A DNA stretch of 64,000 nucleotides from a bacterium (GCA_015075175.1 JABTUV010000012.1:36018-100017), one strand, 5' to 3'; counted from the stretch's first letter, positions 13,497-50,347 are shown. Notes: generated by a model from the letters alone, not told the origin. Translations and numbers: made by a program.

Positions 13497-13512
13497 GCGA
13501 CTGTTGGGAGTG

Positions 13513-13607
13513 CGGCAGCTTGCTGCCGCGCGCAGCATGGTGCGGTCGCGCCACGCTGCGCAACTACGGGTCGCAGCAGCAAGCCGCCGCAGTCCAAAAA
13601 AGGAAAA
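13513..13607. repeat. two copies of the CGGCAGCAAGCTGCCG palindromic repeat family
   Basis: cggcagcttgctgccgcgcgcagc ... gcagcagcaagccgccgcagtccaaaaaagg. Confidence 0.65.
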
Positions 13608-13644
13608 CCCCGGCGTCGGGGAGACGCCGGGGTCTTCTATTTCC
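13608..13644 (+). terminator. rho-independent terminator downstream of the amidohydrolase gene
   Basis: CCCCGGCGTC-GGGGA-GACGCCGGGG 10-bp stem followed by TCTTCTATTTCC. Confidence 0.55.
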
Positions 13645-14059
13645 AGCCGCTGCCAAGTGCGGCGAAACGCCCCATCCGTCAAACAGGCGGGCGGGAAGGG
13701 AGCCGTCGGCTTGCGCCGAGATGATTCGGGCGCTTCCAAAAGGGAAGGTGAAGCGCCCTCGACCAGAGGAATCCCTCCGGGCCTGGCTCCCACCAGTTGC
13801 TACCAGCGGAAGCGTCAGCCCGCAGCTCCCCTCCCTCGGGGTAGGAGTCTCTTAACGTAATCCTGCGGCATTGAGTTCTCCGTTGCCTGGGTTTGTATCC
13901 GGGACCTCTATGTCTGCACAGTATTATAACCCAGGGAGGGTGAAAGTGACGACAAAATCGTAGGGGACGTAGCGGATCGTTACGGGCGTCACGGAAGGGG
14001 CGAGGGTAGGCAGACGGAAGGTGCTTTGTAATATAAAGTTATCGTTTGCGTCTCAATTT

Positions 14060-14111
14060 CGGCCCGCGGCAGCAAGCAGCCGCGCTCCATACGCCCCCTT
14101 AAGAAGGGGGG
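14060..14111. repeat. palindromic repeat copy (14060-14089) plus CCCCCTTAAGAAGGGGGG hairpin (14094-14111)
   Basis: cggcccgcggcagcaagcagccgcgctcca, then ccccttaagaaggggggg; the hairpin is related to the 22157-22197 and 43338-43377 hairpins. Confidence 0.55.
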
Positions 14112-14186
14112 AATAATCCGCGCCACTCTTGCAACTTTCGGAACAAACCAAGCACGCTTGGGCCGATTCCGACCGAAGAGGTACGC

Positions 14187-15483
14187 GATGCGAGGACTAT
14201 TCCGCAGAAAGGGCGTGACGCCGGAACGCCGCCGACCTGCCGGTTTTGACGCCCTGCCCGCCGCCGGCGAGCTGGGAACCCACCCACGATCCATCCCCCT
14301 GGCTTCCGCCCCGCCCAGCGGGTTCTTCCGCTACGGCGAGTTCATCGATCATCCGCAGGGCTGCCCCTCGCTGCTGTTTCCCCTTTATCGCTTCCTGCGC
14401 GACTTCGTTCCCGACGTATCCAACGGCGTGTGGGCCTGGGTGCGATTGTGCAGCACCCCGCAGTCGGTCGCGTACGTGGGCGGCGGGCCGGGGGAGCAGC
14501 AGGCCGCCGCCGAGGTCGTGGCGGCGCTGGATCGGCGCATCTACGAGTTCGACCACATGAAGCAGCAGGGCATGGACGCACTCGTCAACGCCTTCTTCCT
14601 GTCGGTTTTCACCTACGGTTGCTTCGCCGGCGAAGTCGTGCTCCGCGACGACCGGCGCGGCATCGACCGCTTCTACATTGTCGATCCGGCGACCATCCGC
14701 TTCAAGCGCTTTCCCACCAGCCGGCGGCTGGTTCCCTACCAGGTCCTGCCCGACGGCCGGATCATCCGGCTGCGGGAAGCGAGCTTTTTCTACTACGGGC
14801 TGGACGCGGACGGAGACAATCCGTACGGGCGCTCGCCGTTGTCGGCACTGCCGTGGGTCGTCAAGATCAGCCAAGAGATGCTGGAGGACATGGGGCGGGC
14901 GGTGCACAACGCGGGGTGGCCGCAACTGCATGTGCGGTTTTCGCCGCCGGCGCGCGAGCCGGGCGAATCGCTGGAGCACTACGCGGCTCGCACCGAGGCG
15001 GGCTATCGCGAAATCCGCGACGGGCTGCGCGCCAAGAAGGCCGACAGCAACTTTCTCACCTTCGACAACGTCGAGATCGGCTACCTATCGCCGCGCGGCG
15101 GGGCCACGCAATGGTTCCAGGCCTATCAAGCCGTCAGCGAGCAGGTGGTCTCGGCGCTGCATCTGCCGCCGTTCATGCTGGGGCGCAACTGGGGCACGAC
15201 CGAGAGCTGGGGCGCGGCCCAGTACGAACTGATGGTCAACAACGCCGTCTCGGTGCAACGCGGCGCCAAGCGCATGTGCGAGTGGTTGCGCAACCTCGAG
15301 CTGGCCCTGGCAGGACTTCCCGTGATCACGCACCACCACTTCCGGCCGCATCGGCAACTGGCGGCGCGGGAGAACGCGGAGGCGCGCAAGACCGCCATCG
15401 AGGCGGACCTCCTGCTGCTGGACCGGCAGCTCATCCCGCCTGAGGCGGTAGTGGCGGCGCATTTTCCCGGGGGTGGGCGATGA
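14187..15483 (+). CDS. phage portal-like protein
   Basis: 431 aa from the ATG with GAAGAGG RBS (track ORF begins at TTG 14158); size and position at the head of a capsid-gene module suggest a portal; no strong motif, so tentative. Confidence 0.45.
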
Positions 15484-16247
15484 AGCTCTTGGCGGGCGAA
15501 ATGTATCTGGTGCAGCGCGATTGGGGCGGAGTTCCGGCGTCGCTGGTAAAGCGCGGCGCGGCGGTGGAGGCCAGGAGCGAGTCGGGGCGCGATCTGGTCG
15601 CGCTCTTTCCGGCCTTGCGGGGGGAACTGCTGGCGTTGTCGGAAGACTGCGAGTTGTCCGGGCTACTCTATCTCTATCGGGGATGGACGCGACAGCCGCG
15701 GGCCGTCGTGCGCGAGGTGGTCTTGGGCCGGCGCAGTCCGGAGGGCCTCGTTGCCCGCATCGACGTTCTGGATCGACGGGGCGACGGCTCGGTCGAGGAG
15801 CGGCGGCGGGCCGTGGAGGCGCTCTTCTGGGAGCACCCGGGGATGATTCTGCGTCCCGCGCTGACGGACGTGCTGTCGGGCGGGGAGTGCGCGGTGCTGC
15901 TTGCTACCGGCGCAATGCACCTGGTAGTGCGCGCTCTCTCGGGAGACGGGGAGCCGGTGAGGCTGGCGGGCGAGGGCTGCCGACTCCTGCGTTGCGGCCA
16001 CTGGGAGCGGCGCGAATTGGGCGACGGCCTGTCCGAGCTGGCGCTATGGGACGGAGAGCGCCGCCGGTATGCGGGCGTGCACGGATTTGCGCCGGATCGG
16101 AATGCGCAGGTCGGTCCTTACCTGGGGTTTTCCGGCGCGGCGTGGGGTGAACTGGCGGATTGGCGGCTACCGGCGCTGGGCGAGCACTGGCGGGCCGTGG
16201 CGGGGGAGTATCGCATCGAGGAGGAGGACGAACATGCAGAAGCATGA
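15480..16247 (+). CDS. hypothetical phage-cluster protein (prohead protease or scaffold position)
   Basis: 255-aa ORF, start overlaps the portal stop (ATGA); acidic C-terminus EEEDEHAEA; no protease motif recognised. Confidence 0.4.
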   Translation: MKLLAGEMYLVQRDWGGVPASLVKRGAAVEARSESGRDLVALFPALRGELLALSEDCELSGLLYLYRGWTRQPRAVVREVVLGRRSPEGLVARIDVLDRRGDGSVEERRRAVEALFWEHPGMILRPALTDVLSGGECAVLLATGAMHLVVRALSGDGEPVRLAGEGCRLLRCGHWERRELGDGLSELALWDGERRRYAGVHGFAPDRNAQVGPYLGFSGAAWGELADWRLPALGEHWRAVAGEYRIEEEDEHAEA

Positions 16248-16695
16248 GCTGGAGCCGCCCAAGAGTCTGGCGGGGGCGGCCGCCGACGTGCTGTACAGCA
16301 ACGGCGTGTTGGACCTGGAGGCGCTTTCGGACTGGCTGGAGGCGCGCGAGGCGGAGTTCGGCGCGCAGAGCGCGCGGTTGGAGGAACTGGAGCGCGAGGC
16401 GGAAGCCAGCGCGCCGCTGGTCGAGCAGGCGCGGGCGCAGATGTCGAGGCGCCGGGGCGAGGTGCAACGCGGCTGGCGGTACTGGCGGCGGCGGAGACGC
16501 CCCGCCGAACTGGCGCGGCTGCGGCGCGAGCTGTTGCGCGCCGAGAGCGCCGAGCAGCTGGAGGCGCTGGCCGACCGCGTCGAGCGGTTGATCGAGGACG
16601 CGCTGCCGACGCGTCCGACCGCCGAGGCCGTGGAGAGCGCGGGCCGCGACGTCTCGCGGCAGTTGGCGGCCTTTCGCATGGCCGGCGGGACCTGA
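16235..16695 (+). CDS. hypothetical coiled-coil protein (scaffold-like)
   Basis: 153 aa; highly charged, helical, Arg/Glu-rich (ELEREAEASAPLVEQARAQ...RRELLRAESAEQLEALADRVERLIEDAL). Confidence 0.4.
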
Positions 16696-16714
16696 GCTCG
16701 CCGTGAAATTGTGG

Positions 16715-16830
16715 ACTGCGGCAGCCGGCTGCCCGCGGTTGTGGACCGCGGCTGCTTGCTGCCGCGCGCGGGAGCAAGCAGTCGCATTTCATAGCGGCAG
16801 CAAGCTGCCGCAGTCCAGAAGAAATCCTAT
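16715..16830. repeat. three alternating-orientation copies of the GGCAGCAAGCTGCCGCAGTCCA repeat forming a large inverted repeat
   Basis: tggactgcggcagccggctgcc ... ggaccgcggctgcttgctgccgcg ... gcggcagcaagctgccgcagtccagaagaaatcc immediately upstream of the RBS and GTG at 16846. Confidence 0.65.
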
Positions 16831-16845
16831 GAGGAGGAACAATCA

Positions 16846-17250
16846 GTGACCAGAAACGTGGACAATCTGGGCATCGGCGCCTTGTACGGCAGTTTCAACG
16901 TGGAACTGTCGGAAGGCGAGCCGACCCTGACAACCAGCGACGTGGGCAAGGCGGTCGTCTTGTCCGACGACAACACCATCGGGATCGGGAGCGACGGCGA
17001 CCGGCTCCTCGGGCGGCTGGAGGCGATCGAGGACGAGTTGGCGACGGTGCAAGTGGCCGGCGTGGTGCGCCTGTCTCTGGCGGAGGGCAAGACGGCGCCG
17101 GACGTGGGCGACGGGGTGGTGGTGGACGGGGCGGGGGCGGCCTATCAGGCGCCTGCGCTGGGCGGCAACGATCCGGCGGGCGGCAACGTGGCGCGCGGCG
17201 TCACGCTGGCCGTCGATGCTACCGCGGGAACCGCGGACATTCTGCTGTAA
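16846..17250 (+). CDS. Gly/Val/Ala-rich small protein (DUF2190/head-decoration-like)
   Basis: 134 aa, GTG start with AGGAGG RBS; composition and position just upstream of the capsid gene resemble DUF2190/decoration proteins. Confidence 0.4.
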   Translation: MTRNVDNLGIGALYGSFNVELSEGEPTLTTSDVGKAVVLSDDNTIGIGSDGDRLLGRLEAIEDELATVQVAGVVRLSLAEGKTAPDVGDGVVVDGAGAAYQAPALGGNDPAGGNVARGVTLAVDATAGTADILL

Positions 17251-17265
17251 GGAGGCAAGACACAG

Positions 17266-18330
17266 ATGAACCACCACGCTTACGAACGGGGCGGGCTGCC
17301 GGCGGAGCTGGCGCGGGCGGCGGAGATCACGCTCTCTCCCGATCTTTACAGCCGGGCGCGCACGCGCGGGCTGTCTTTGTCCGGGCTGCTGGAGGAGCTG
17401 GACCCGAGCGGGCCGGGGGCGGCGCTGGACGCCTTCGAGCGCCAACTGGCGCTGGCCGGCATCCGCGTCGCCGGCCCCCAGGCCGACGCCATCGACCGCT
17501 TCTTTGCCAGCGCGGAGAACGCGGTGCTCTTCCCCGAGTACGTCTCGCGCGCGGTGCGCGCGGGCATGAGCGACTTCTCCAAGCTGGACAAGATCACGGC
17601 GACCCGCACCAAGATCGACGACGACACCTACCGCACTCTCTACATGGACGATTCCGTCTACGCGGAGGGCGAGCTCTCGCTGGCCCGTGTCTCGGAAGGC
17701 GCGGCCATGCCCAGGATCGAGATCAAGACCGCCGAGCATTCGATCACGCTGTCCAAGTACGGGCGCTACATCGAGACTACCTACGAAGCCATCCGGCGCA
17801 AGAAGGCGCCCGTGGTCGAGGTGTTTCTGCGCAGCATCGGGATGCAGATCCAGAAGGACAAGTTCCGCGAGGCGCTGTCCGTGCTCATCTCGGGGGACGG
17901 CAACGACAACGCCGCGCCGGTCGATCCCGTGGAGACCGACGAGACGCTGACCTACCCCGACCTCATCCAGTTTTCGCTGGCGTTCGCGCCCTACGAGTTG
18001 TCGGTGCTCGTCGCGGACGCGACCACGGCGGCCTTGATCCTCAACCTGGACGAGTTCAAGCATCCCGAGGTGGCCCGCGGTTTGCAGACGCGGGGCGAGA
18101 TGATCACGCCGCTGGGCGCGACGCTGATCGTGGACGACAGCGCTCCCGCCAACAAGATCGTGGGCCTGGACCGGCGCTTTGCGCTGGAGGAGGTCTACGA
18201 GACCGGCGTACTGATCGAGAGCGACCGGCTGATCCGCCAGCAGATCGAGGGCACGGCCATTTCAGAGGTCGCCGGCTTCGGCAAGCTGGTGACTTCGGCG
18301 TGCCGCGTGCTCAACCTGGACATCAGCTAG
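17266..18330 (+). CDS. HK97-fold phage major capsid protein
   Basis: 354 aa; E-loop-like segment PRIEIKTAEHSITLSKYGRYIETTYEAI and overall layout typical of the Phage_capsid family; flanked by portal-like and connector genes. Confidence 0.6.
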   Translation: MNHHAYERGGLPAELARAAEITLSPDLYSRARTRGLSLSGLLEELDPSGPGAALDAFERQLALAGIRVAGPQADAIDRFFASAENAVLFPEYVSRAVRAGMSDFSKLDKITATRTKIDDDTYRTLYMDDSVYAEGELSLARVSEGAAMPRIEIKTAEHSITLSKYGRYIETTYEAIRRKKAPVVEVFLRSIGMQIQKDKFREALSVLISGDGNDNAAPVDPVETDETLTYPDLIQFSLAFAPYELSVLVADATTAALILNLDEFKHPEVARGLQTRGEMITPLGATLIVDDSAPANKIVGLDRRFALEEVYETGVLIESDRLIRQQIEGTAISEVAGFGKLVTSACRVLNLDIS

Positions 18331-18710
18331 TCTGCCCGGGGGCGGGAGCGATGCGCTCCCGCCCCCGTTCTTTCCACCCGCACGGCGCGCAGCACCCCTC
18401 GATACGGCCTCTGGCCTACTCGGGGCCGGGCGCTGCGCAAGTACGGATTTGCGGGACAGTCGCTCATGGAGCTTCGCCTCACCCGTAGAGGATATAAACC
18501 GAGGCGGCTCCGAGGGCTGCCTGGGCGCATCGAGACCGTCCTCTCGATATCCCTCGATACGGCCTTTGGTCTACTCGGGACAAGGCGCGGCCCGAAGTTA
18601 CAGCTTGCGCTTCAAGCAGGCCATCCGTCGGGCCGCTACTCGAGGACTCGGTTTTGTTTTTGCTCAGGGCATTTCAGGAATGCACTATTCTCGGAGCAGG
18701 AGTGATCTCG
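18331..18710. repeat. 380-bp noncoding insert inside the structural operon; dispersed repeat family (CTCGATACGGCC / CTACTCGAG motifs)
   Basis: About 57-bp imperfect direct repeat (18397-18453 vs 18549-18606); 18634-18668 gctactcgaggactcggttttgtttttgctc is the reverse complement of 32380-32432. Confidence 0.55.
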
Positions 18711-19115
18711 ATGGCCTTCACGGACCTTGCCACGGTGCGATTGCACACCGGATTGTTGGACGAGGAGCGCGTGCCCGACGAGTTGATCGAGCAGCGGCTG
18801 GCCGACGCGCACGCGGACATTTTGCGCGACCTTGCGCCCGCCTACGCCGAGAGCACGGACGCGGTCCTGGCGACCGCCGAGACGGAGCTGGCGGCGGCGT
18901 ATCTCCTGCGCAGCCTGGCGCTGGGGGCGGCCTTTGCGGACAAGGACCTGCGGAGCGGGGACCTGACGCTGCGGCAGCGCGGGCGCAGCGGGGTGCTGTT
19001 GGCGCAGGCCGAGGCGGAGGAGCGGCGCGCCTGGGGGCGGCTCCTGCCGTACTTGACGAAGTCCGCCCATCCGCATCGCTTTACGCCCGTCGAGCCGGAC
19101 GGAGAGGGGGCCTGA
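18711..19115 (+). CDS. phage gp6-like head-tail connector protein
   Basis: 134 aa; N-terminal pattern MAFTDLATVRLHTGLLDEERVPDELIEQRLADAHADI matches the gp6-like connector family signature. Confidence 0.5.
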   Translation: MAFTDLATVRLHTGLLDEERVPDELIEQRLADAHADILRDLAPAYAESTDAVLATAETELAAAYLLRSLALGAAFADKDLRSGDLTLRQRGRSGVLLAQAEAEERRAWGRLLPYLTKSAHPHRFTPVEPDGEGA

Positions 19116-19116
19116 C

Positions 19117-19803
19117 GTGGTTACGTTGGGCGATTACGCCTTTGCCCACGACACGACTCGAGTCCTCTCGGACCTGCGCTTCGTCGAGGACCGTCTGCGG
19201 AGACAGGTCGAGATCGTCGGCCTCCTGTCGGGCTTCTCCACGCGGGCGGCGTTCGAGAGCGAACTGGCGGCGCTGGACGCGGCCGTGGAGGCGTTCTCCA
19301 ACGGATCGGCGGCGCTTTCGCTGACGGCGGGGCGCGCCCTGTCCGGCAGCGTGCTGCGCTATCGCAAGACCCTCGACGAACTGCAGCGTTCCGTCGCCTT
19401 CCGGCTGATTCTCCTGTCCGAGGATCGCTTCGAACGCAGTGTGGCGCTCCACGAGGAACCGCTCACCATCACCGCGTCGGGCGACTATCTCGTGTTGGAG
19501 AACGCGGGCACGGCCGACAGCCTGCCGACGCTCACGCTGACGGCCGACGGGTCGCTGGTTGACCCGAGTTTATCCGACGGGACGCGCGCGCTGACGTACC
19601 ACGGGACGCTTTCGGCGGGCGACGTGCTGGTTGTGGACTGCGACGCGCATACCGCCACGGTCAACGGCGAGAACGCGCTGTCCGGCGTATCCGGCGACTG
19701 GCCGCGCCTGTCGCCGGGCGAAACCACGCTTACTTACAGCGATGATGCCGCCGGCTCGCACGACGCCACGCTGGTCGTGGCGTACCGCGATTTCTGGGCC
19801 TGA
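19117..19803 (+). CDS. hypothetical phage structural protein
   Basis: 228 aa, GTG start 1 nt after the connector stop. Confidence 0.4.
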   Translation: MVTLGDYAFAHDTTRVLSDLRFVEDRLRRQVEIVGLLSGFSTRAAFESELAALDAAVEAFSNGSAALSLTAGRALSGSVLRYRKTLDELQRSVAFRLILLSEDRFERSVALHEEPLTITASGDYLVLENAGTADSLPTLTLTADGSLVDPSLSDGTRALTYHGTLSAGDVLVVDCDAHTATVNGENALSGVSGDWPRLSPGETTLTYSDDAAGSHDATLVVAYRDFWA

Positions 19804-19825
19804 GAGTGAGAGAAAGGACGAGTCG

Positions 19826-20851
19826 ATGAGCAAGCAACTGCAACGGACGACCGAGCCGGCGGCGGCCTCGCCCGAAACGATGGCCGACCTCCTGGCCGAG
19901 ATCAACGCACTCTCTCCCACCCCGCTGGGAGAGGACGACGTATACGTGCGCAGCATGATCCTGTGTACCGACCGCGTGTGCGAGAGCGACTGGTGCAGGT
20001 TTTCACCGACCGCGCTGGCGGAGATCGCCGAAAAGATCGCGGGCGTGTCGGTGCTGGCCGGGCACGACCGGCGCAGCCTGCCGGTCGGACGCTTTTTCCG
20101 CGGGCGCGTGGTCGAGTTGCCGGAGGAGAATCCGGCCACGGGCCGGCCGGTGGTCGCCGTGCGCGCCTGGTTCTACTGGCTGGCGGCGACCAGCGGGGCC
20201 GAGGACCTCCTGCGCAACATCGACGGCGGCATCTACCGCGCGGTGTCGGTCTCCTGGCGCTATGAAAAAGACCATTGCAGCGTGTGCGGGGCGGCGACCG
20301 GCTGCGGGCACACGCCGGGTCGCACATACGGCGGCCAGCTCTGCCATCGCGTGATCGACCACGTGGACGAGGTACTTGAAGGCTCGCTGGTGTACAAGGG
20401 GGCCGACAGCGCGGCGCAAGTGGGGCGGCAACGCGACGCGCATTCCAGCCGGCGGGTGGGCGGCGGATTCTCGTGGGATCGCGCCTGGATCGCGTTCATG
20501 GCGCGCGCGCTGGCCGATCTGCCGCTCGAGAGCTGCACGTTCCGCGCGGCGGGGGTGCTGGCGCGCGAGACGGAAGCGATTCTCCACAACCTGGGCTGGA
20601 GGTTCTTGGCGCGGACGTGTCCGGCGTCGCCGCGGTTGGTGTGGTACACGGCGGCGGAAGGCGAGACGGTGGATTTCGCGCGCTTGGCGGCGGAGCTGGC
20701 CGGGCCGGGGCGGTTGATCGTCGCCGGACCGGGCGGGCGCGCTCCCCTCGCGGCCCTGCCGCGCGGCCTGCGGCTCTCGCGCCTCCTGGCTTTGCCCTTC
20801 TGGAACCGCCCCTGGTGGGTACTCGAACTGGAGAAGGAGGCGGTGGCATGA
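19826..20851 (+). CDS. hypothetical protein with Cys4 zinc-ribbon-like motif
   Basis: 341 aa; CSVCGAATGCGH...C cluster. Confidence 0.4.
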   Translation: MSKQLQRTTEPAAASPETMADLLAEINALSPTPLGEDDVYVRSMILCTDRVCESDWCRFSPTALAEIAEKIAGVSVLAGHDRRSLPVGRFFRGRVVELPEENPATGRPVVAVRAWFYWLAATSGAEDLLRNIDGGIYRAVSVSWRYEKDHCSVCGAATGCGHTPGRTYGGQLCHRVIDHVDEVLEGSLVYKGADSAAQVGRQRDAHSSRRVGGGFSWDRAWIAFMARALADLPLESCTFRAAGVLARETEAILHNLGWRFLARTCPASPRLVWYTAAEGETVDFARLAAELAGPGRLIVAGPGGRAPLAALPRGLRLSRLLALPFWNRPWWVLELEKEAVA

Positions 20852-21645
20852 GCGGCTTCGGACGTTACAGCCCGACGCGCGCGGAGCATGGCTCCAGCCT
20901 GTGGAGCTACGGCGAGGTTCCCGTGGCCAGCGCCAAGCTGAACACCTGGAACGGCAACGTGGCCGCGGCGCTGGACTTTCTCCACCACAGCCTGGCCCGG
21001 CTGGTAGGCGCGGCGGAAGCGGACTTCGTGCTTTCGCTGGGGACGGGCGCGGAACTGAAAGTGGTCGCGCAGGCGGTTCCCAATATGACGGTGAAAGTGC
21101 GCGCGGGCAGCGCGTTCGTGGACGGCTTTGTATGCGGCCTCTCCGCCGACGTGACGCTGCCGCTTTCGGGCACGCTGGCCGCGCCGGTGGAATATCCGCG
21201 CATCGACCTGGTCTATCTGGACGCCTACGGCGAGCCGCACATTCTCGCGGGGCCGGAGTCGGGCGCGCCGGTCGTGCCGGACACTCCCGCCGGAACGTTG
21301 AAGCTGGCCGAGGTCTACCATCGCGTGGGCGAAACCAGCATAGAGGACAGCGACGACGCGGAGAACGGCTACCTGACGGACTTCCGGCCGATTCGCATTC
21401 TGGGACGGGCGCACGAGCATCCGCGGGGATCGGACCGCGCGCCGGCGGAAAGCCCTGACGGCGCCCGCGTCACCTTCAGCACCCCGCAGAAGTTCCGCGC
21501 CGGCACGCTGCGCGTGTGGTTGAACGGCGTCGAGCAGGACCCCGCACTCGTGGTGGAAGACGCGGGGCAAGAGAGCTACACGTTCACGACCGCGCCCTTC
21601 TCCGGCGACCGCCTCAGCCACGACTATGAGAAGGAGGGCGCGTAG
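20848..21645 (+). CDS. hypothetical phage-cluster protein (tail/fiber-like position)
   Basis: 266 aa; ATGA overlap with the upstream gene. Confidence 0.4.
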   Translation: MSGFGRYSPTRAEHGSSLWSYGEVPVASAKLNTWNGNVAAALDFLHHSLARLVGAAEADFVLSLGTGAELKVVAQAVPNMTVKVRAGSAFVDGFVCGLSADVTLPLSGTLAAPVEYPRIDLVYLDAYGEPHILAGPESGAPVVPDTPAGTLKLAEVYHRVGETSIEDSDDAENGYLTDFRPIRILGRAHEHPRGSDRAPAESPDGARVTFSTPQKFRAGTLRVWLNGVEQDPALVVEDAGQESYTFTTAPFSGDRLSHDYEKEGA

Positions 21646-22020
21646 GTGGCGCCGGAAGTGAACCAGGTGGACCTGGTGTGGATGTTCTCCAATCTGGTGG
21701 GCGTGGCGGCGTGCTACTACCTATTGGCGTTTTACATTCCGCGGCGGGACGAGTCGATGCGCGAGGCGTGGACGGCGCGCGAGCGGTGGTTGTCGCAGAT
21801 TTACAGCGACGAGAAGGCGACCTACGAGCGGCTGGTCGACCGGCTGGCGGAGGAGTTCCGCAGTACCGCGCGCAGCGTGGACGTGCTGTCGGGGCTGATG
21901 TACCAGTGGCTGCATCAGCGGCCCGGGCAGCGGCTGTCGCGGCAGGAGATCGAGCGGGCCATCGACGACCTGAAGAAGGGCGGGGCGACGGCCATGCAGG
22001 TGGGGCTGGGGCAATCGTAG
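21646..22020 (+). CDS. small membrane-anchored hypothetical protein
   Basis: 124 aa, GTG start directly after the upstream stop; N-terminal TM helix LVWMFSNLVGVAACYYLLAFYIP. Confidence 0.35.
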   Translation: MAPEVNQVDLVWMFSNLVGVAACYYLLAFYIPRRDESMREAWTARERWLSQIYSDEKATYERLVDRLAEEFRSTARSVDVLSGLMYQWLHQRPGQRLSRQEIERAIDDLKKGGATAMQVGLGQS

Positions 22021-22156
22021 AGTCGTGATTGGCGGGACTGGCGCGTTGACGGCCGCCCTTCGACGCGGATGGCCTGAAGCGAAGGTGGAAGACCGGGTGA
22101 ATGCGGGTTCTGCACGCGCTTAAGGCCATCCTGCTCAGGTTTGTCGGGATGGGTTA

Positions 22157-22197
22157 TCGGCCTTGGCTCCCCCCTTAACAAGGGGGGTTGGGGGGGG
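22157..22197. repeat. GC hairpin repeat GGCCTTGGCTCCCCCCTTAACAAGGGGGGTTGGGGGG (copy 1)
   Basis: Near-identical 40-bp copy at 43338-43377; stem CCCCCC/GGGGGG with loop TTAACAA. Confidence 0.7.
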
Positions 22198-22226
22198 ACA
22201 GTGGGCGGCGAGCGGCGGCAGGCGAA

Positions 22227-22275
22227 GCGTGTGGGCAAGATGCCCACACGCAAGCCGGCGGGACGCCGGCGTTAC
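22227..22275. repeat. composite double-hairpin repeat (TGTGGGCA..TGCCCACA plus GCCGGCGGGACGCCGGC), copy 1
   Basis: gcgtgtgggcaagatgcccacacgcaagccggcgggacgccggcgttac; the related copy at 45605-45714 carries compensatory substitutions that preserve both stems. Confidence 0.65.
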
Positions 22276-22286
22276 GAGGAGTACTC

Positions 22287-23384
22287 ATGCATCCCATCGC
22301 GCGCATCTACGACGCGGACGGCCGGTTGACCGCGGAGATCGCTCCGCCGCGCTCCGTGCACGCCGTCTCGCGGCTGGGGGCGCTTTCCGCCGAGTGCCGG
22401 CTGGAATTGTTGCCCGAGGACGCCCGCATCCCCGTCTCGCACCACGACCACCTGGTCGTCTCGCTGGCGGGAGAGACCCTCTTTGACGGTCCCGTCGTCG
22501 AGCTGCGCACCGACAGCCTGGGCCGGCTCTTGTCGCTGCGTGGCGCGCTCGTGCCCGAGCGGGACTGGAACGAACGCGTGACCGGCCGCTACCAGGAGAA
22601 CAACGTCGGCGCCATCCTGGCCGGCGTGATCGAGGGCCTGAGCTTTTCCCCCGTGCGCTACACGCCCACGCATGAATTCGATGCGCCCATCGACGCACTC
22701 ACCTTCGACCAGTATCCGCTCTTTTACGCCATCGATCTCCTGGCCAAGCTGGCGGGCAACGCGCTCTGGGACCTCGACTGGGAGGGGGCGTTGCGCTTTC
22801 GGCCCTCCAGCGTCGCTCCGGACCACGTGGTCTACTTCGATCCGCGCCATCACGCGCTGAAGGTGTGGCAAAGCGACGAGCCCATCCGCAATTCGTTCAC
22901 CGCGCGCGGCGGCATCGTCGCGGACAACGAGTTCGTGCGCTCGTTTGACGACCCCGAATCGATCGCGCGCTACGGGCTTCTGCCCATGACGCTCTTCGTG
23001 CGTCCCGTCAACACTCCATCCGTCTACGAGCGGTTGCGGGAGGCGATTGTGTCCGAGGCGACGCGGCCCCGGCTGAACAAATATCTGGACGTGCGCAGCG
23101 GGGGTTGGACGGTGCGGGCGGGCGACTTGATCGAGCTGCGCGGCTCGCCCCTGCCCGCGCCCGGACAGGACCAGGTGTTTCGCGTCAAGGCGCGCGAAAT
23201 CGCCTGGAGCCCGGAGAAAGCCCGCGCGCGCCTGTGGTTCGCGGAGGGCCGCGAGAACGCGGCTTCCTACCTGCGCTATCTCGACCACGAGCACACCGGC
23301 CTGGACCCGGACTGGGTGCGGCGGCGGGTGGGCCCCTTCCAACTGGACTTCTCGGCGGTGGACAGCTCGGCCCAGCTGGCGTAG
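22287..23384 (+). CDS. hypothetical phage-cluster protein
   Basis: 365-aa ORF, last gene of the co-directional phage-like cluster. Confidence 0.4.
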   Translation: MHPIARIYDADGRLTAEIAPPRSVHAVSRLGALSAECRLELLPEDARIPVSHHDHLVVSLAGETLFDGPVVELRTDSLGRLLSLRGALVPERDWNERVTGRYQENNVGAILAGVIEGLSFSPVRYTPTHEFDAPIDALTFDQYPLFYAIDLLAKLAGNALWDLDWEGALRFRPSSVAPDHVVYFDPRHHALKVWQSDEPIRNSFTARGGIVADNEFVRSFDDPESIARYGLLPMTLFVRPVNTPSVYERLREAIVSEATRPRLNKYLDVRSGGWTVRAGDLIELRGSPLPAPGQDQVFRVKAREIAWSPEKARARLWFAEGRENAASYLRYLDHEHTGLDPDWVRRRVGPFQLDFSAVDSSAQLA

Positions 23385-23545: not shown

Positions 23546-23975
23546 GTGAAAATCTCGTCATTCATGGTCCCAACCTGACCTTCTGGGACGCCGCGAGCCG
23601 GAAGTGTACGGGCGCGTCACGCTGGCGGAGTTGAACCGGCGCCTGGAGAGCCTGGCCAAGGAGCCTGGCGCGACCGTCGAGTGCCTGCAGATCGCCGGCG
23701 AAGGCGATGGTGAAAGCCATCAGCGGCGCTGACGCTGCGACGGCATCCTGATCAATCCTGCCGCCTATACCCACACCTCCATCGCGGTGCGCGACGCCCT
23801 CGCCGCGGTGGGACTGCCCACGGTGGAAGTGCACCTCTCCAATATCGCCGCGCGCGAGGAGTTCCGCCACAAGTCCTACGTGGCGCCGGTAGCCGGGTCG
23901 ATTCCGGCCTGGCGCGGACAGCTACTATCTAGCCTGCGCGCGCTGGTCTCGATCCTGGCGCTGCGCAAGAACTGA
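23546..23975 (+). pseudogene. aroQ: 3-dehydroquinate dehydratase type II (aroQ) with multiple single-base frameshifts
   Basis: Conceptual repair gives VKI(L)VIHGPNL(N)LLGRREPEVYG...LAELN...ECLQ(SNHEGE)...[21 protein letters not shown]...[26 protein letters not shown], diagnostic of AroQ, spread over 3 frames with at least 4 one-base deletions (two traced to aa->a and cc->c). Confidence 0.6.
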
Positions 23976-23976: not shown

Positions 23977-25816
23977 GTGAGCGCCTCTGCGCGCGCCTTC
24001 TGCTGGTCTGCCGCGCGCCTGGCGCCGGCGGCGCTGCCCGTCCACCTGGTCTTCATGCTGGCGGCTTTCCAGTCCAGCGATCTGCGCTCGACGGGAACCA
24101 TCATCAGCCAGGCGGTGGTGCTGAGCGTGGCCATGGTACCTCTGGCGACGGCCGTGGCCCACGCTGGCCGGCTGGAAGTCGCCGTCTTCGCCGTGGCGCT
24201 GCTCTTTTCTTCTTCCGGGCTGGCGACCTGGACCATCGCGAGCCAGCCGCTGCTGGCGACCACACAAGTACGGGCGTGGGCGTGCTGGCTGCCTTTGCTG
24301 TCGCCGCGCTGTCGCGGCGCGAGGGGCGCTTCTGGCTGCCGGTTTTGTGGCTGCCGGCGCTGGCGGCGCTCCTCGTCTTTCGCGGCGGGCACGCCCCATG
24401 GTGGTATGGAGAAGGAACGCCGCTGTCCGCGCTCTGCTTTTGGCGCTGCCGTTAGCGCTGGCGCTGCATACCGGCATCCTGGCCGCGTACGCTGGCTCCT
24501 GCTGCCCGCGTGGTGCTGGCGCTGCTGTTGGCCGCTTACTTTCTGATCCTGGCCGGCAGCGCGGACCTCTCGCCTTCTAGCGGTGTATGTGTTCGTCTCG
24601 CGGCATCGGCGATGGTCAGTCCCCACGCCTGCGGGTTCGTCTTGTGGGACGCTGGCGGTACCGCATCTCTGGTTGGACTGCGAGGAGGCGATGCTGCTGA
24701 GAGCTGGCGCTGACTGCACGCGCGAGAAGTTGCGGCTGCACCGGAGTATGTCTTGGCGCAACCGCCGGGCTACGGCTGGGAGGCGCTGGCGACGGCGTTT
24801 GGCGGCGCTGCCTTCTGGCGCCGGACCCGGCCACGAAACCGCACTCCTCGCCGGCTCCCGCCTCCCGCCCCATCCCTACACCATCCCCGGCGCTTTCATC
24901 TGGGAGGGACTGTGCGCGCTCGGCTATGGCTTCTTTCTCGCCCTGGCGGGTTTCCTCTTGCTTCAAATGGTAGGCGACCAGGCGGAGGACGACGATCCCA
25001 CCGCGCCCCGCGCGCGGGCGATGTTGGGGGCTGTGGACGGCCTCCTTCCTCGTGCTGTTCAGCGGATTCCTCGTCCAACCCGCTGTGGTGGATGGCGCTG
25101 GGGGTGCTTTATTCGGCGCGGCCGGTCGCCGCGCGCGGGTACCGGCGCGGGCTGCGCGCGACCGCACACGCCGGCGCCTTGGCGCTCTTTCTCCTGTGCG
25201 CATTCCCCCTGATGGCAGGTCGCGGCGGGTGGTGTTCGCCCATCCGCAGGATTACGGCCGATCAGCGCAGCGGACGCGCCTGCGCTGGCATCGCGCGCGC
25301 AGGCTGGAGCCGCAGAACGGCGCCTATGCCTTCGGCCTGGCCCATGCCGTCTACGCCGCCAACCTGGCCGAGCACAACCTGCGCTTTCAGGCAGTCAACG
25401 ACGAGGTGCTCGCGCTTCTCTCCGAGGCGGTGGCCAAGGAGCCGTACAACGGCGTGTATCGCTGGGTGTACTCGCGTTTTCTGCTTTTAGCGGGCCGCTG
25501 GGACGCGGCGCTGGCCCAGGAGCAGCGGGCCATTGCGCTGGCTCCGCGCCGCCTGGAATATCGCCGCAGCATGGCGGAGACCTGCGAGAACCTGGGCCGC
25601 CTGCAACTGGCGCTGGCGGAGTATCGCGCCTGCGCCGACCTGTCCCCCTTCGATCCCGAGTTGCGGCTGGCCATCGCGCGCGTGCTGGTCGCCCTCAAGG
25701 AACCCGAGGCCGCGCGGCTGGAATACGAGAAAGTCCTGCGGCTGGCGCCCGACGATCCCATCGCCAGGAGCTACCTGGAACGGCATCCTCGCCCGGACGC
25801 TCAGCACGTCTTTTGA
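23977..25816 (+). pseudogene. polytopic membrane protein with C-terminal TPR repeats (O-antigen-ligase/TPR-like), fragmented across three frames
   Basis: ORFs 23977..24546, 24753..25490 and 25052..25816 are consecutive pieces in different frames: a hydrophobic N-part, then TPR-like LALAEYRACADLSPFDPELRLAIARVL...LEYEKVLRLAPDDP. Confidence 0.4.
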
Positions 25817-34337: not shown

Positions 34338-35570
34338 ATGGCGGACTTGCGTTTTGTGACCGCGGGCGAGTCGCATGGACCGCAGCTGACGGGCGTCATC
34401 GAGGGCCTGCCGGCGGGTCTGCCGGTGTCGATTGAGGCGATAAACCGGCAGCTGGCGCGACGGCAGCGGGGCTATGGCCGCGGGGGGCGCATGAAGATCG
34501 AAAAGGACGAGGTCGAGATCGTCGGCGGGGTGCGTTGGGGCGAGACGCTGGGCGGGCCGGTCGCGTTGGTGGTCAGGAACCGCGACTGGGAGAACTGGAA
34601 GACGCGCATGTCGCCCGACCCCGCGCACAAGGGTGAGGCGGAGAGCGTGGATCGCCCGCGGCCCGGTCACGCCGACTTGGCGGGGGTGCTCAAGTACGCC
34701 CGCGAGGACGTGCGCGATATTCTGGAGCGCGCCTCCGCGCGCGAGACCACCATGCGCGTGGCCATCGGGGGCCTGGTGCGACAAATGCTGGAACTCTTCG
34801 GCATCCGGCTGGTCGGCTACGTGGTCGAGATGGGCGCGCACAAACCGCAATGCGACATAGGTTCGCTTTCGTTTGAGGAGAAGGCGGCGCGCAGCGAGGC
34901 CTCGCCCGTGCGCTGCCTCTGCCCGGAACAGGAGAAGGACATCGTCGCCGAAATCGATCGCATCACCGGCAGCGACACGCTGGGCGGCATCTACCAGGTG
35001 GAGGCGCACGGCCTGCCCATCGGACTGGGGAGCCACGTGCAATGGCACACCAAGCTGGATGCGCGACTGGCGGCGGCGATGCTCTCCATCCAGGCGCACA
35101 AGGGGGTCGAGTTCGGGCTGGGGTTTGAGGCGGCGCGGCGCCTGGGCAGCCAGGTGCACGACGAAATCATCGTCGAGGACGGTCGCATCACGCGCGCCAG
35201 CGACCACGCGGGCGGCCTGGAGGGAGGCATGACCAACGGGCAGGTGTTGATCGTGCGCGCCGCCATGAAGCCCATCTCGACGCTGGCGCGCCCGCTGCGC
35301 TCGGTCAATCTGAAGACGCGCAGCGAGGAGTCGGCCGCCTACGAGCGCAGCGACGTGACCGCCGTGCCCGCCGCCGCCGTCATCGGCGAAAACGTGGTCG
35401 CCTGGGAGATCGCGCGGGCCATGGTCGAGAAGTTCGGCGGCGACAGCCTCTCGGAGATGCGCCGCAACTATGACGGGTACATGGCTGAAGTGGCGAAGCG
35501 GCTGGACCTGCGCAAGATTTCTCGCTGCGCTCGAAATGACAAGGTCGATGGGCCGACATCGCAGCCATGA
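34338..35570 (+). CDS. aroC: chorismate synthase
   Basis: MADLRFVTAGESHGPQLTGVIEGLPAGL..GRSSARETT-like motifs are diagnostic; stop overlaps the aroB start (ATGA). Confidence 0.85.
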   Translation: MADLRFVTAGESHGPQLTGVIEGLPAGLPVSIEAINRQLARRQRGYGRGGRMKIEKDEVEIVGGVRWGETLGGPVALVVRNRDWENWKTRMSPDPAHKGEAESVDRPRPGHADLAGVLKYAREDVRDILERASARETTMRVAIGGLVRQMLELFGIRLVGYVVEMGAHKPQCDIGSLSFEEKAARSEASPVRCLCPEQEKDIVAEIDRITGSDTLGGIYQVEAHGLPIGLGSHVQWHTKLDARLAAAMLSIQAHKGVEFGLGFEAARRLGSQVHDEIIVEDGRITRASDHAGGLEGGMTNGQVLIVRAAMKPISTLARPLRSVNLKTRSEESAAYERSDVTAVPAAAVIGENVVAWEIARAMVEKFGGDSLSEMRRNYDGYMAEVAKRLDLRKISRCARNDKVDGPTSQP

Positions 35571-38566: not shown

Positions 38567-38721
38567 GAATGTTCATCCTCCATCGCCCCGTTGGGGGCAG
38601 CTCGAAGCTCTATTATGGCGCGGGTGGGCGGGGAGTGTCAATCGCCTTGCCGGTCCGATTTCCGCTTGACCGCTTCATGGCCCGCGTTCAACATGAGACC
38701 AACGTCGCAGGGGGAATCGCC

Positions 38722-43337: not shown

Positions 43338-43377
43338 TGCGGCCTTGGCTCCCCCCTTAACAAGGGGGGTTGGGGGG
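43338..43377. repeat. GC hairpin repeat GGCCTTGGCTCCCCCCTTAACAAGGGGGGTTGGGGGG (copy 2)
   Basis: Near-identical to 22157-22197. Confidence 0.7.
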
Positions 43378-45572: not shown

Positions 45573-45604
45573 AACCGCGGTAGCGCCGGCATCCTGCCGG
45601 CTGG

Positions 45605-45714
45605 CGTGTGGGCATCCGGCCCACACGCCTCGGCGACAGGGTGCGCGTGATGCGAAGCGTGGGGGCGAGACGCCCCTCACGCAAGCCGGCGGGACGCCGG
45701 CGCTACCGCGGGGT
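45605..45714. repeat. composite double-hairpin repeat, copy 2 (TGTGGGCATCCGGCCCACA plus GTGGGGGCGAGACGCCCCTCAC plus GCCGGCGGGACGCCGGC)
   Basis: Shares gcgaagcgtg...cacgcaagccggcgggacgccggcgYtac with 22227-22275; stem sequences differ, but complementarity is preserved. Confidence 0.6.
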
Positions 45715-50271: not shown

Positions 50272-50347
50272 GCAGGAGTAGCTCAGTTGGTAGAGCTCCA
50301 CGTTGCCAACGTGGTTGTCGCGGGTTCGAGTCCCGTCTCCTGCTCCA
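50272..50347 (+). tRNA. tRNA-Gly (anticodon GCC)
   Basis: Cloverleaf folded by hand: acceptor GCAGGAG/CTCCTGC, D-arm GCTCAGTTGGTAGAGC, anticodon stem CCACG/CGTGG with loop TTGCCAA, T-arm GGGTTCGAGTCCCG, 3' CCA encoded. Confidence 0.9.

What the first reader, a model, noticed from the sequence alone, without database searches (positions are those of the whole stretch)
14187..23384. Phage-like head-neck-tail gene cluster without terminase, tape measure, integrase or lysis genes (GTA-like or domesticated remnant?)
Eleven co-directional genes: portal-like, two unknowns, a DUF2190/decoration-like protein, an HK97-fold capsid, a gp6-like connector and five further proteins that are tail or adsorption-like by position. 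Many are translationally coupled. Nothing upstream (an amidohydrolase) or downstream (pseudogenes) resembles terminase, replication or lysogeny genes, and no gene is long enough for a tape measure. The cluster is only about 9 kb, well below a functional prophage, and is decorated by a private repeat family. Options: a gene-transfer-agent-like element, a tailocin or encapsulin-like domesticated particle, or a decaying prophage.
Basis: partly seen in the sequence, partly recalled or inferred. Interest (0 to 1): 0.6.

Follow-up and report, generated by a model that had tools for sequence, protein, structure and literature searches.

The report
Domesticated terminase-less phage capsid/tail-tip cassette
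Eleven intact phage-derived genes for a capsid and a stub tail tip, with no DNA-packaging or lysis genes, sit in this bacterial chromosome; they belong to a previously undescribed family of such cassettes that is inherited with the host and kept by selection in Hinthialibacterota/Omnitrophota genomes.

Summary
Window 14188-23384 carries 11 co-directional, intact genes: portal, unknown, scaffold-like, cement (ex-DUF2190), HK97-fold capsid, putative adaptor, Dit, XkdF-type prohead protease (not a tail protein), fibre-like structural protein, TM protein, and a gp27/Mu gp44-type hub. The 64 kb holds no terminase, tape measure, tube or lysis gene. The "private" repeats are dispersed host repeats. 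The only integrase (50.4 kb) belongs to a separate island.

The array is one member of a family found on long chromosomal contigs of Hinthialibacterota (OLB16)/Omnitrophota MAGs. Sister arrays continue past the hub into TerS-TerL and carry an M15 peptidase, yet are flanked directly by host genes (a self-contained ~11-12 kb, GTA-like cassette). The window's clade (5 genomes, monophyletic) lost terminase and lysis genes once. It keeps all ORFs intact, co-diverges with flanking host genes (dS 0.5-0.9 vs 0.7-0.9) and has dN/dS 0.13-0.57 (host flanks 0.19). A third, larger clade also lacks the portal.

Standalone TerS-TerL operons of the expected divergence exist in host contexts, but I could not link them to this genome.

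Verdict: a domesticated, selection-maintained particle cassette. A split-locus GTA-like system is the most likely mechanism; a DNA-free particle is the main rival. New variant of a known kind.

The parts
14188..15483 (+). g1 portal protein (431 aa)
   Evidence: phrog_3753 2.6e-41; Pfam Portal_Mu 4.1e-7. 42% identical to the portal of IMG/VR contig L036. dN/dS 0.13 vs L032.
15480..16247 (+). g2, unknown (255 aa). Translationally coupled to the portal; sits where Mu gpF/SPP1 gp7-type minor head proteins sit.
   Evidence: No Pfam/PHROG hit. Present only in portal-bearing arrays. dN/dS 0.29. The role is inferred from position only.
16234..16695 (+). g3, coiled-coil scaffold-like protein (153 aa)
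   Evidence: By position it corresponds to the Type B first gene, whose family is homologous to the coiled-coil C-terminal half of the L025 protease-scaffold fusion located between portal and g4-MCP. Fast-evolving (dN/dS 0.57). g3 itself did not cluster by BLAST with that family, so the assignment rests on position and composition.
16846..17250 (+). g4 capsid cement/decoration protein (134 aa, ex-DUF2190)
   Evidence: phrog_4588 'virion structural protein' 4e-6. 5 of 9 family members hit Pfam Phage_cement_2.
17266..18330 (+). g5 HK97-fold major capsid protein (354 aa)
   Evidence: phrog_3922 3.6e-79; Pfam Phage_capsid_4 4.8e-12. More than 80 homologs at 55-88% identity, nearly all 350-354 aa, on chromosomal contigs.
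18337..18367 (+). Strong terminator-like hairpin directly after the capsid gene (14-bp stem, 13 GC pairs, then a T-rich tail)
   Evidence: A role in transcript stoichiometry is inferred.
18711..19115 (+). g6 putative head-tail adaptor (134 aa, helical)
   Evidence: Position after the MCP. 28% match to an ORF in viral contig L037. No Pfam/PDB hit. Single-sequence AF2 gives pLDDT 66 and a 3-helix bundle, with no significant fold match. The role is untested.
19117..19803 (+). g7 distal tail protein (Dit) (228 aa)
   Evidence: Pfam SPP1_Dit 1.9e-14; phrog_5577 7e-16; phrog_33 Dit 1e-11.
19826..20851 (+). g8 prohead (head-maturation) serine protease, XkdF/S78_2-like N-domain with a Cys3His cluster, plus a poorly conserved C-terminal half (341 aa)
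   Evidence: Invariant H80, S141, C151, C154, C160 and H162 across 28 sequences. One member hits Peptidase_S78_2 at 3e-5. The homolog lies between portal and MCP in L036, L037, MT835508 and Bacillus phage CUBc25, and is fused to scaffold in L025. phrog_16951 9e-31.
20848..21645 (+). g9 virion structural / fibre- or baseplate-like protein (265 aa)
   Evidence: 20 of 21 family members hit phrog_358 and 19 of 21 hit phrog_3398 'virion structural protein'; there are weaker baseplate/tail-fibre PHROG hits. Weak Pfam DUF4815 hit.
21646..22020 (+). g10 single-TM protein with a highly conserved helical C-domain (124 aa); specific to the window's clade
   Evidence: 71-85% identical across 4 genomes. 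dN/dS 0.16. No profile relation to the small lysis-region proteins of sister arrays. Function unknown.
22287..23384 (+). g11 tail/baseplate hub protein (gp27 / Mu gp44 / Tal / VgrG-N fold) (365 aa)
   Evidence: AF2 with a 23-sequence MSA: pLDDT 88.7, pTM 0.86. Foldseek PDB: Mu baseplate 9ki1_G 2.3e-17, MuSo2 3cdd, T4 gp27, VgrG, 80alpha Tal. BFVD: 602 hits at E<=1e-3. Only 33 cluster representatives among 1.84e9 proteins.
13497..14187 (.). Upstream intergenic region: presumed promoter region of the array, REP-like palindromes, and a minus-strand sRNA candidate
   Evidence: A promoter for the array itself was not identified.

Best explanation
SHOWN. The 11 genes are a real, intact, phage-derived cassette. 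Head genes: portal, scaffold-like protein, XkdF-type maturation protease, HK97-fold capsid protein, cement protein. Tail-tip genes: putative adaptor, Dit ring, gp27/gp44-type hub, fibre-like protein. There is no tail tube, tape measure, sheath, terminase, endolysin, integrase or replication gene.

The array is the reduced form of a self-contained ~11-12 kb chromosomal cassette found in Hinthialibacterota (OLB16)/Omnitrophota MAGs. That cassette runs portal ... hub - TerS - TerL and includes an M15 peptidase. The terminase and lysis genes were lost once, at the base of the window's five-genome clade. Since then the array has been inherited with the chromosome under purifying selection as strong as on neighbouring host genes.

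INFERRED (mechanism). The cassette still builds a particle. Scaffold and portal nucleate a procapsid, the protease matures it and the cement protein stabilises it. An adaptor-Dit-hub stack with g9 fibres then forms a tube-less stub tail directly on the portal. The most likely mechanism is a split-locus GTA-like system ('viriform'): DNA is packaged by a TerS-TerL operon encoded elsewhere in the genome, and release depends on unlinked host or lysis functions.

My confidence that this is a selection-maintained domesticated cassette is about 0.8. My confidence that packaging is supplied in trans by an unlinked terminase is about 0.4.
For: Gene identities.

Family and architecture. There are 26 loci in GTDB species representatives plus metagenome contigs up to 1.85 Mb. 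Sister arrays carry TerS-like+TerL (Terminase_6C 4.4e-5) and Peptidase_M15_3 (6.9e-14) right after and within the same gene order. Their flanks are Pfam-verified host genes.

Single loss. The five terminase-less arrays are monophyletic in the MCP tree and sister to the terminase-bearing ones.

Selection and vertical descent. Window vs syntenic L032: array dS 0.46-0.95 and dN/dS 0.13-0.57, against flanking amidohydrolase and ureidoglycolate lyase at dS 0.70-0.90 and dN/dS 0.19. No internal stops in any of the 5 genomes. Array GC tracks flank GC with r=0.94 over 42-65% GC. Host REP/MITE-like repeats have colonised only the intergenic gaps.

Not viral. IMG/VR holds only 2 relatives, both at 48% identity.

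Trans-terminase idea. Four standalone TerS-TerL operons (L041-L044) sit among host genes with no array genes within 5-10 kb. They are 70-76% identical to each other and 46-51% to array-linked TerL. That matches the portal (45-48%) and MCP (55-61%) distances between the window clade and the full arrays. Unlinked 'singlet' terminases are documented for reduced RcGTA clusters (PMC9254644). The portal is the most constrained gene of the array (dN/dS 0.13).
Against: No terminase of this family is on the window's 128 kb contig or on relatives' 323 kb and 65 kb contigs. No TerL hit carries an accession from the window's assembly series. The standalone TerS-TerL loci could not be tied to any array-bearing genome, so the link is circumstantial.

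No endolysin or holin is recognisable in the window's clade. No tube or tape measure exists even in the terminase-bearing arrays, so DNA delivery through a Dit-hub stub has no characterised precedent that I could find.

The larger Type B clade lacks the portal locally and lacks TerL on a 1.85 Mb contig, yet it is equally conserved. That suggests the family can serve a function independent of DNA packaging.

Chromosomal position is conserved only between the window and L032; L003, L034 and L035 sit in other contexts.

No expression or particle data exist. dN/dS was computed with a simple NG86 estimator under strong GC3 bias, and dS is saturated for the deeper pairs.
Confidence: 0.55

Rival explanations
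1. DNA-free domesticated particle. After losing terminase, the cassette was retained to build an empty or protein-loaded capsid-with-hub particle used for something other than gene transfer, for example a surface, adhesion or puncturing device or a compartment.
For: No cognate TerL lies on any long contig that carries a terminase-less array, including a 1.85 Mb contig. The Type B clade lacks both portal and TerL yet co-diverges with its host flanks at dN/dS 0.07-0.30. Type B adds signal-peptide proteins F6 and F8. The hub has a VgrG/gp27-type puncturing-device fold. Lysis genes are absent.
Against: The portal is retained and is the most constrained gene in the window's clade. An adaptor-Dit-hub stack is a DNA conduit in all known systems. 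Standalone TerS-TerL operons exist. No cargo-targeting or effector gene is evident in the window's array.
Confidence: 0.22
2. Decaying prophage or GTA remnant. The array is a non-functional leftover that has not yet accumulated disabling mutations.
For: It has lost TerS, TerL, the M15 peptidase and the small lysis-region genes. It has also lost the F2 paralog that L003 and L034 still have. Its intergenic gaps are expanded by repeat insertions. An aroQ pseudogene lies directly downstream.
Against: All 11 ORFs are intact in five genomes separated by dS 0.5 to >2. dN/dS is 0.09-0.37 for most genes, equal to the host flanks. Constraint is no looser than in terminase-bearing arrays at comparable dS. 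Repeats never interrupt coding sequence.
Confidence: 0.12
3. Satellite-like parasite. The array supplies its own head and tail tip and hijacks the terminase and lysis functions of a co-resident helper phage.
For: It lacks exactly the functions a helper phage could supply. Capsid-forming satellites (cf-PICIs) show that capsid modules can be carried without a full phage.
Against: There is no integrase, excisionase, replication or regulatory gene next to the array in any of 9 Type A loci. Co-divergence with flanking host genes argues against mobility. Close viral relatives are nearly absent from phage and IMG/VR collections.
Confidence: 0.07
4. Part of an ordinary functional prophage whose terminase, lysis and lysogeny genes lie just outside the window.
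For: Only 64 kb of a 128 kb contig could be read directly. The edge look-ups were uninformative.
Against: The array is bounded by host genes on both sides: amidohydrolase 0.7 kb upstream, then aroQ, TPR and UvrD downstream. There are 14 kb of host genes upstream and 27 kb downstream before any other mobile element. No family TerL is on the 128 kb contig. The same bounded layout recurs in L003, L032, L034 and L035.
Confidence: 0.03

Closest known systems
Gene transfer agents / viriforms (RcGTA-type and others), including the reduced RcGTA clusters of Rickettsiales/Holosporaceae endosymbionts with unlinked 'singlet' terminases (PMC9662315, PMC9254644)
   Same: Caudovirus-derived structural gene cluster fixed in the chromosome. 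No replication, integration or lysogeny genes. Vertical co-divergence with the host and purifying selection, strongest on head genes. Sister arrays carry their own TerS-TerL. Reduced clusters with the terminase encoded elsewhere are documented for RcGTA relatives.
   Different: It occurs in unrelated phyla (Hinthialibacterota/Omnitrophota) and is an independent domestication. The MCP is Pfam Phage_capsid_4 and the portal is Mu-type. It has no tail tube, tape measure, terminator or megatron: the tail is only adaptor?-Dit-hub plus a fibre-like protein. The window's form has no terminase on a 128 kb contig and no lysis gene. Particle production and DNA packaging are untested.
PBSX-type defective prophages of Bacillus (source of the XkdF protease family)
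   Same: Chromosomally fixed, non-replicating phage-like element. It shares an XkdF/S78_2-type prohead protease.
   Different: From my own knowledge, PBSX keeps terminase, a full contractile tail and lysis genes and is about 28 kb. The array here is 9 kb, tube-less and terminase-less.
Uncultured phages MT835508 and IMG/VR UViG_3300005915_000248 / 3300025697_002198; Bacillus phage vB_BcM_CUBc25
   Same: Closest viral head modules: MCP 40-48% and portal 24-42% identity (27% and 26% for CUBc25). The g8-type protease lies between portal and MCP.
   Different: These are full phage genomes or fragments with large tail proteins (1205 aa in L037; tape measure in CUBc25). They share no Dit, g9, hub or TerL homologs with the array at E<1e-4. 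In the chromosomal arrays the protease has moved downstream of Dit.
Encapsulins
   Same: HK97-fold shell protein maintained by the host. The portal-less Type B relatives invite the comparison.
   Different: The window's array encodes portal, scaffold, protease, Dit and hub, and shows no cargo-loading signature. It is not an encapsulin operon.
Capsid-forming PICIs (cf-PICI satellites)
   Same: A compact capsid module lacking part of the virion machinery.
   Different: From my own knowledge, cf-PICIs have integrase, replication and TerS genes, lack tail genes and are mobile. This array has none of the first three, has tail-tip genes and behaves as a fixed chromosomal locus.

Membership tests
Gene transfer agent / viriform (criteria as in PMC9662315) | Cluster of caudovirus-derived head and tail genes resident in the cellular chromosome | tested here: met
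   host genes on both sides
Gene transfer agent / viriform | No genes for autonomous replication, integration/excision or lysogeny control within or next to the cluster | tested here: met
   The only integrase in the window is 27 kb away in a separate tRNA-Gly island.
Gene transfer agent / viriform | Evolves with the host: vertical inheritance and purifying selection | tested here: met
   Window vs L032: shared upstream synteny, array dS 0.46-0.95 vs host flanks 0.70-0.90, dN/dS 0.13-0.57. GC tracking r=0.94. Monophyly of architecture classes. Position is not conserved across the whole clade.
Gene transfer agent / viriform | Encodes a terminase that packages cellular DNA | tested here: not met
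   No TerL or TerS in the 64 kb, and none of this family on the 128 kb contig. Sister arrays have TerS-TerL, and standalone TerS-TerL operons exist elsewhere, but they are not linked to this genome.
Gene transfer agent / viriform | Particles carry random host DNA fragments too small to encode the particle; production is host-regulated and release is by lysis | not testable with these tools
   This needs particle purification and sequencing. No lysis gene is recognisable in the window's array.
RcGTA-like (alphaproteobacterial) GTA head-tail cluster | RcGTA gene set including tail tube, tape measure, hub and megatron | tested here: not met
   No tube, TMP or megatron; the largest gene is 431 aa. 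The MCP family is PF25209.
Functional temperate prophage | Contiguous terminase, complete tail, lysis, integrase and repressor/replication modules | tested here: not met
Tailocin | Tail tube (with or without sheath), tape measure and baseplate, without head genes | tested here: not met
   Head genes are present; tube, TMP and sheath are absent.
Encapsulin operon | HK97-fold shell protein without portal or tail genes, with cargo protein(s) | tested here: not met
   Portal, Dit and hub are present.
cf-PICI / phage satellite | Integrase, replication/primase, TerS, mobility; no tail genes | tested here: not met
   None of these lies next to the array in any of 9 Type A loci. Tail-tip genes are present.
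gp27 / Mu gp44 / Tal baseplate hub fold (g11) | Hub fold that matches solved hub proteins | tested here: met
   pLDDT 88.7; Foldseek 2.3e-17 to 9ki1_G, probability 1.0, TM 0.6
Peptidase S78_2 (XkdF) prohead protease (g8) | Family profile match and conserved His/Ser catalytic pair | tested here: inconclusive
   Invariant H80/S141 in 28 sequences, and the canonical portal-protease-MCP position in viral relatives. The Pfam profile is hit by only 1 of 28 members (3e-5).
HK97 gp6 / SPP1 gp15-type head-tail adaptor (g6) | Sequence or fold match to known adaptors | tested here: inconclusive
   No Pfam or PDB-profile hit. The low-confidence model has no significant fold match.

The most novel reading that the evidence does not exclude
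The window's array is one stage of a phylum-spanning, previously undescribed family of domesticated capsid cassettes in Hinthialibacterota/Omnitrophota. The family forms a graded series: (i) full cassette with TerS-TerL and lysis genes; (ii) terminase- and lysis-less (this window); (iii) portal- and terminase-less with added secreted proteins. All are kept under purifying selection, and their 'tail' is a Dit-hub stub with no tube or tape measure. Either this is a new, independently evolved split-locus GTA system with a novel tube-less delivery apparatus, or the later stages are a new kind of phage-derived particle that no longer moves DNA at all.
Probability: 0.35. Interest if true: 0.85.

Novelty: new variant of a known kind. 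Interest (0 to 1): 0.68.

Why it matters
GTAs and other domesticated phage particles are known from only a handful of lineages. How they arise and what they become is an open question.

This family offers a natural series of reduction stages, from a self-contained cassette to terminase-less and portal-less forms. All stages are under selection, in poorly known and largely uncultured phyla that, to my knowledge, include ultra-small and possibly host-dependent cells.

If the particles move DNA, this is a new independent GTA origin with an unusual tube-less Dit-hub tail and split loci. If they do not, it shows a capsid being repurposed after losing its packaging motor, which bears on how encapsulin-like compartments or injection devices can evolve from viruses.

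It also matters for annotation. These loci are called 'phage major capsid protein' in MAGs and could be miscounted as prophages.

Tried and rejected
(1) A portal+TerL concatenate joined with a GGGGS linker found nothing and wasted one capped search. The linker probably flooded the word index.

Only g11 could be modelled with an MSA, built from representative-search hits. g6 was modelled from a single sequence and was uninformative.

(3) PDB profile searches for g8, g9, g11 and g6 gave nothing significant. PHROGs on the g11 family gave nothing.

(4) g10 was tested as a diverged holin-like homolog of F21, F22 or F26 and rejected by hhalign.

(5) A search for terminase or lysis remnants in the downstream 'pseudogene' stretch found none. 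By my reading that stretch holds a frameshifted aroQ.

(6) The 'private repeat family' was rejected.

(7) Walking beyond the window edges failed. One gene was not on record and the other appeared only on short contigs.

(8) A metagenome scan with the clade-specific g10 found nothing.

(9) An accession-series link between the window's assembly and any TerL hit could not be made.

(10) Literature searches for such clusters in Omnitrophota/Hinthialibacter, or for tube-less Dit-hub tails, found no description.

Full report
1. WHAT IS IN THE WINDOW

The window is GC-rich (60-70%). GC3 and frame analysis together with start-site context give 11 co-directional + strand genes from 14188 to 23384. They have Shine-Dalgarno motifs and overlaps or abutments at g1/g2, g2/g3, g6/g7, g8/g9 and g9/g10.

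Family scans gave these assignments:
- g1 is a portal (phrog_3753 2.6e-41; Pfam Portal_Mu 4e-7).
- g5 is an HK97-fold major capsid protein (phrog_3922 3.6e-79; Phage_capsid_4 4.8e-12).
- g7 is a distal tail protein (SPP1_Dit 1.9e-14).
- g4 is a cement/decoration protein: 5 of 9 family members hit Phage_cement_2, the former DUF2190.
- g9 is a virion structural, fibre- or baseplate-like protein: 20 of 21 family members hit phrog_358 and 19 of 21 hit phrog_3398.
- g11 had no sequence-level hit. An AlphaFold model built on 23 homologs (pLDDT 88.7) matches baseplate hub proteins: Mu gp44 2.3e-17, MuSo2, T4 gp27, VgrG and 80alpha Tal, plus 602 viral hub models.
Its N-domain has invariant His80 and Ser141 and a Cys3His cluster across 28 sequences. 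One family member hits Peptidase_S78_2/XkdF at 3e-5. In every viral relative its homolog lies between portal and capsid gene, and in locus L025 it is fused to the scaffold domain.
- g2, g6 and g10 remain unassigned. The 'gp6-like connector' label for g6 could not be verified.

No gene exceeds 431 aa. There is no tube, tape measure, sheath, terminase, endolysin or integrase in or next to the array.

The flanks are host genes. Upstream lie ureidoglycolate lyase and amidohydrolase. Downstream lie aroQ (which I read as frameshifted), a TPR protein, UvrD and an ABC transporter.

2. CORRECTIONS TO THE OBSERVATION

The 'private' repeats are dispersed host intergenic repeats. The GCGGCAGCAAGCAGCCGC palindrome occurs 10 times (0.44 expected), and copies also sit around host genes at 10.7-13.6 kb. 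The repeats filling the g10-g11 gap recur at 43.3 and 45.6 kb.

The window does hold a tyrosine integrase, but it is in a separate lower-GC island at tRNA-Gly (50.3 kb). That island also carries a lone Gp23-like capsid gene and a type III R-M system.

3. THE ARRAY BELONGS TO A FAMILY OF CHROMOSOMAL CASSETTES

The capsid protein has more than 80 homologs at 55-88% identity. Nearly all are 350-354 aa, and many lie on contigs of 0.1-1.85 Mb labelled Omnitrophota, Ca. Hinthialibacteria OLB16 or 'bacterium'. By contrast, the phage collection holds nothing above 42% identity and IMG/VR holds only two contigs at 48%.

I examined contexts in 26 GTDB species representatives and several metagenome contigs. 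Analysis by tblastn, family clustering and profile HMMs shows three architectures.
- Type A-full (L007, L012, L024, L027, L040). The order is portal ... Dit, protease, g9, a g9 paralog, small TM proteins, an M15 peptidase (absent from L007 by the HMM search; not checked in L040), hub, a TerS-like HTH protein and TerL (Terminase_6C above the Pfam cut-off). The flanks are Pfam-verified host genes with no integrase or replication genes. This is a self-contained ~11-12 kb, GTA-like cassette.
- Type A-reduced (window, L032, L035, L034, L003). The order is the same but the array stops after the hub. It lacks TerS, TerL and M15 and carries the clade-specific g10.
- Type B (about 20 loci). This type runs from scaffold through g9, then adds genes that include two signal-peptide proteins. 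There is no portal or TerL within 10 kb. The context is conserved: NDH2 | array | GalT-PurC.

4. POLARITY AND INHERITANCE

An MCP tree rooted on the viral contigs places L025 first; L025 has the ancestral portal-protease/scaffold-cement-MCP order. Type B then forms one clade and Type A forms its sister. Within Type A, the five terminase-less arrays are one monophyletic group, sister to the terminase-bearing arrays. One loss event therefore suffices.

The window and L032 share their upstream host genes. Across that pair the array genes have dS 0.46-0.95 and dN/dS 0.13 (portal), 0.16 (MCP), 0.15 (g6), 0.16 (g10), 0.2-0.37 (most others) and 0.57 (scaffold). The flanking amidohydrolase and ureidoglycolate lyase have dS 0.90 and 0.70 and dN/dS 0.19.

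All 11-12 ORFs are intact in all five genomes. At high divergence (vs L003) constraint is similar to that within terminase-bearing arrays. Type B arrays likewise co-diverge with NDH2, PurC and GalT at dN/dS 0.07-0.30. Array GC tracks flank GC over 42-65% GC (r=0.94, n=25).

These results argue for long residence, vertical descent and continued function, and against a mobile prophage or a neutrally decaying relic. One caveat applies: chromosomal position is shared only between the window and L032. L003, L034 and L035 sit in different contexts.

5. WHERE IS THE TERMINASE?

Profile HMMs and tblastn find no TerL, TerS or M15 remnant in the 64 kb.

A profile search of 5.8 billion proteins with the array-linked TerL returned 66 hits. 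None lies on the window's 128,361-bp contig. None lies on the 323,419-bp (L003), 64,740-bp (L032), 1,848,149-bp (L002) or 690,758-bp (L004) contigs that carry terminase-less arrays. Two hits do match contigs that also carry an MCP homolog (40,226 and 17,575 bp); the 40,226-bp contig was confirmed as a full array.

The second tier of hits (48-53% identity) turned out to be standalone terminases. Four loci (L041-L044) each have an intact TerL preceded by a conserved, overlapping ~150-aa HTH (TerS-like) gene. They sit among ordinary host genes with no array genes within 5-10 kb.

Their divergence from array-linked TerL (46-51%) equals the portal and MCP divergence between the window's clade and the full arrays. 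There are about 7 such clusters, closer to the abundance of the window's clade (about 5 MCP clusters) than to Type B (about 60). I could not tie any of them to an array-bearing genome, so this remains a lead and not a demonstration.

Unlinked 'singlet' terminases with reduced head clusters under purifying selection are documented for RcGTA relatives in endosymbionts (PMC9254644).

6. MECHANISM

Shown: the gene set is sufficient in kind for procapsid assembly (portal, scaffold, MCP), maturation (protease) and stabilisation (cement), plus a tail tip (Dit, hub, fibre-like protein). A strong hairpin follows the MCP gene.

Inferred: a particle with a tube-less stub tail in which adaptor, Dit and hub stack on the portal. 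Even the terminase-bearing sister arrays have no tube or tape measure, so this would be the native architecture of the family. I found no description of such a tail.

I rank four explanations for the window's form:
- Packaging by an unlinked TerS-TerL operon, giving a split-locus GTA-like viriform, is the most likely mechanism. Overall confidence in the best explanation is 0.55; the trans-terminase step on its own is about 0.4.
- A DNA-free particle with a new role: 0.22. This is strengthened by the portal-less Type B clade.
- A slowly decaying remnant: 0.12.
- A helper-dependent satellite: 0.07.

An ordinary prophage that continues outside the window is essentially excluded (0.03).

7. COMPARISON WITH KNOWN SYSTEMS, AND NOVELTY

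The array meets the genomic GTA criteria that I could test: chromosomal caudovirus-derived cluster, no replication or integration genes, co-evolution with the host, and purifying selection. It fails the terminase criterion locally, and its particle properties cannot be tested here.

It is unrelated to RcGTA in gene content. It is not a tailocin, encapsulin or cf-PICI.

The held literature contains no description of such cassettes in Omnitrophota or Hinthialibacterota.

I rate it a new variant of a known kind: an independently domesticated phage-particle cassette, terminase-less and tube-less. The family-level picture (graded reduction series, standalone TerS-TerL operons) is the most interesting part.

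Noticed in passing
window 13600-13952, minus strand: Candidate ~330-nt sRNA between the amidohydrolase and the portal. It has a conserved sigma70-like promoter (TCGTCA-17-TGGGTTATAAT), a ~170-nt core about 97% identical to L032 (coding dS there is 0.5-0.9), and a terminator hairpin with compensatory stem changes. MFE is -155 kcal/mol (z = -3.6). There is no Rfam match. It is present only in the window and L032, not at other array loci.
   Followed up: partly
window 50272-63998: Separate lower-GC (~60%) integrative island at tRNA-Gly. It holds a tyrosine integrase (50385-51650), a lone T4 Gp23-like major capsid gene (52245-53480, PF07068 1.9e-24), an unknown 363-aa gene, an ORF6N-like DNA-binding protein (by my reading), and what I read as a type III restriction-modification system whose res gene is split into two overlapping ORFs (55922-58959). 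A solitary Gp23-type capsid gene in a defence-like island is unusual.
   Followed up: partly
loci L002/L018, L004, L008-L011, L013-L017, L019-L023, L026, L028, L029, L031 (Omnitrophota MAGs): 'Type B' relatives of the array keep scaffold, cement, MCP, g6, Dit, protease and g9, and add proteins with signal peptides (F6, F8). They have no portal within 10 kb and no family TerL on contigs up to 1.85 Mb. They sit in a conserved NDH2 | array | GalT-PurC context and co-diverge with those host genes at dN/dS 0.07-0.30. This would be a capsid with Dit but apparently no portal.
   Followed up: partly
loci L041 (539-2032), L042 (2473-3945), L043 (623-2486), L044 (9622-11470): Standalone TerS-like + TerL operons embedded among host genes with no other phage genes nearby. 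They are 70-76% identical to each other and 46-51% to the array-linked TerL.
   Followed up: partly
window 23550-23975: aroQ (type II 3-dehydroquinase) looks like a frameshifted pseudogene: its N-terminal and C-terminal parts are in different frames. The genes I read as aroC (34338-35570) and aroB (35567-36658) in the same window are intact. The stretch 23977-25050 has no convincing ORF.
   Followed up: partly
window 18331-18710 and 22021-22286: The intergenic gaps inside the array are 380 and 266 bp, against 60 and 12 bp in the close relative L032. They are filled by repeat units: a 41-nt direct repeat at 18396/18551, the hairpin CCCCCCTTAACAAGGGGGG, and copies of elements found at 43340-43377 and 45584-45702. 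These are host REP/MITE-like elements colonising the array without disrupting genes.
   Followed up: yes
window 38569-39981: An AAA_21/AbiEii-type ATPase (Pfam AAA_21 2.1e-28, AAA_15, DUF2813), a candidate defence gene, lies among housekeeping genes.
   Followed up: no
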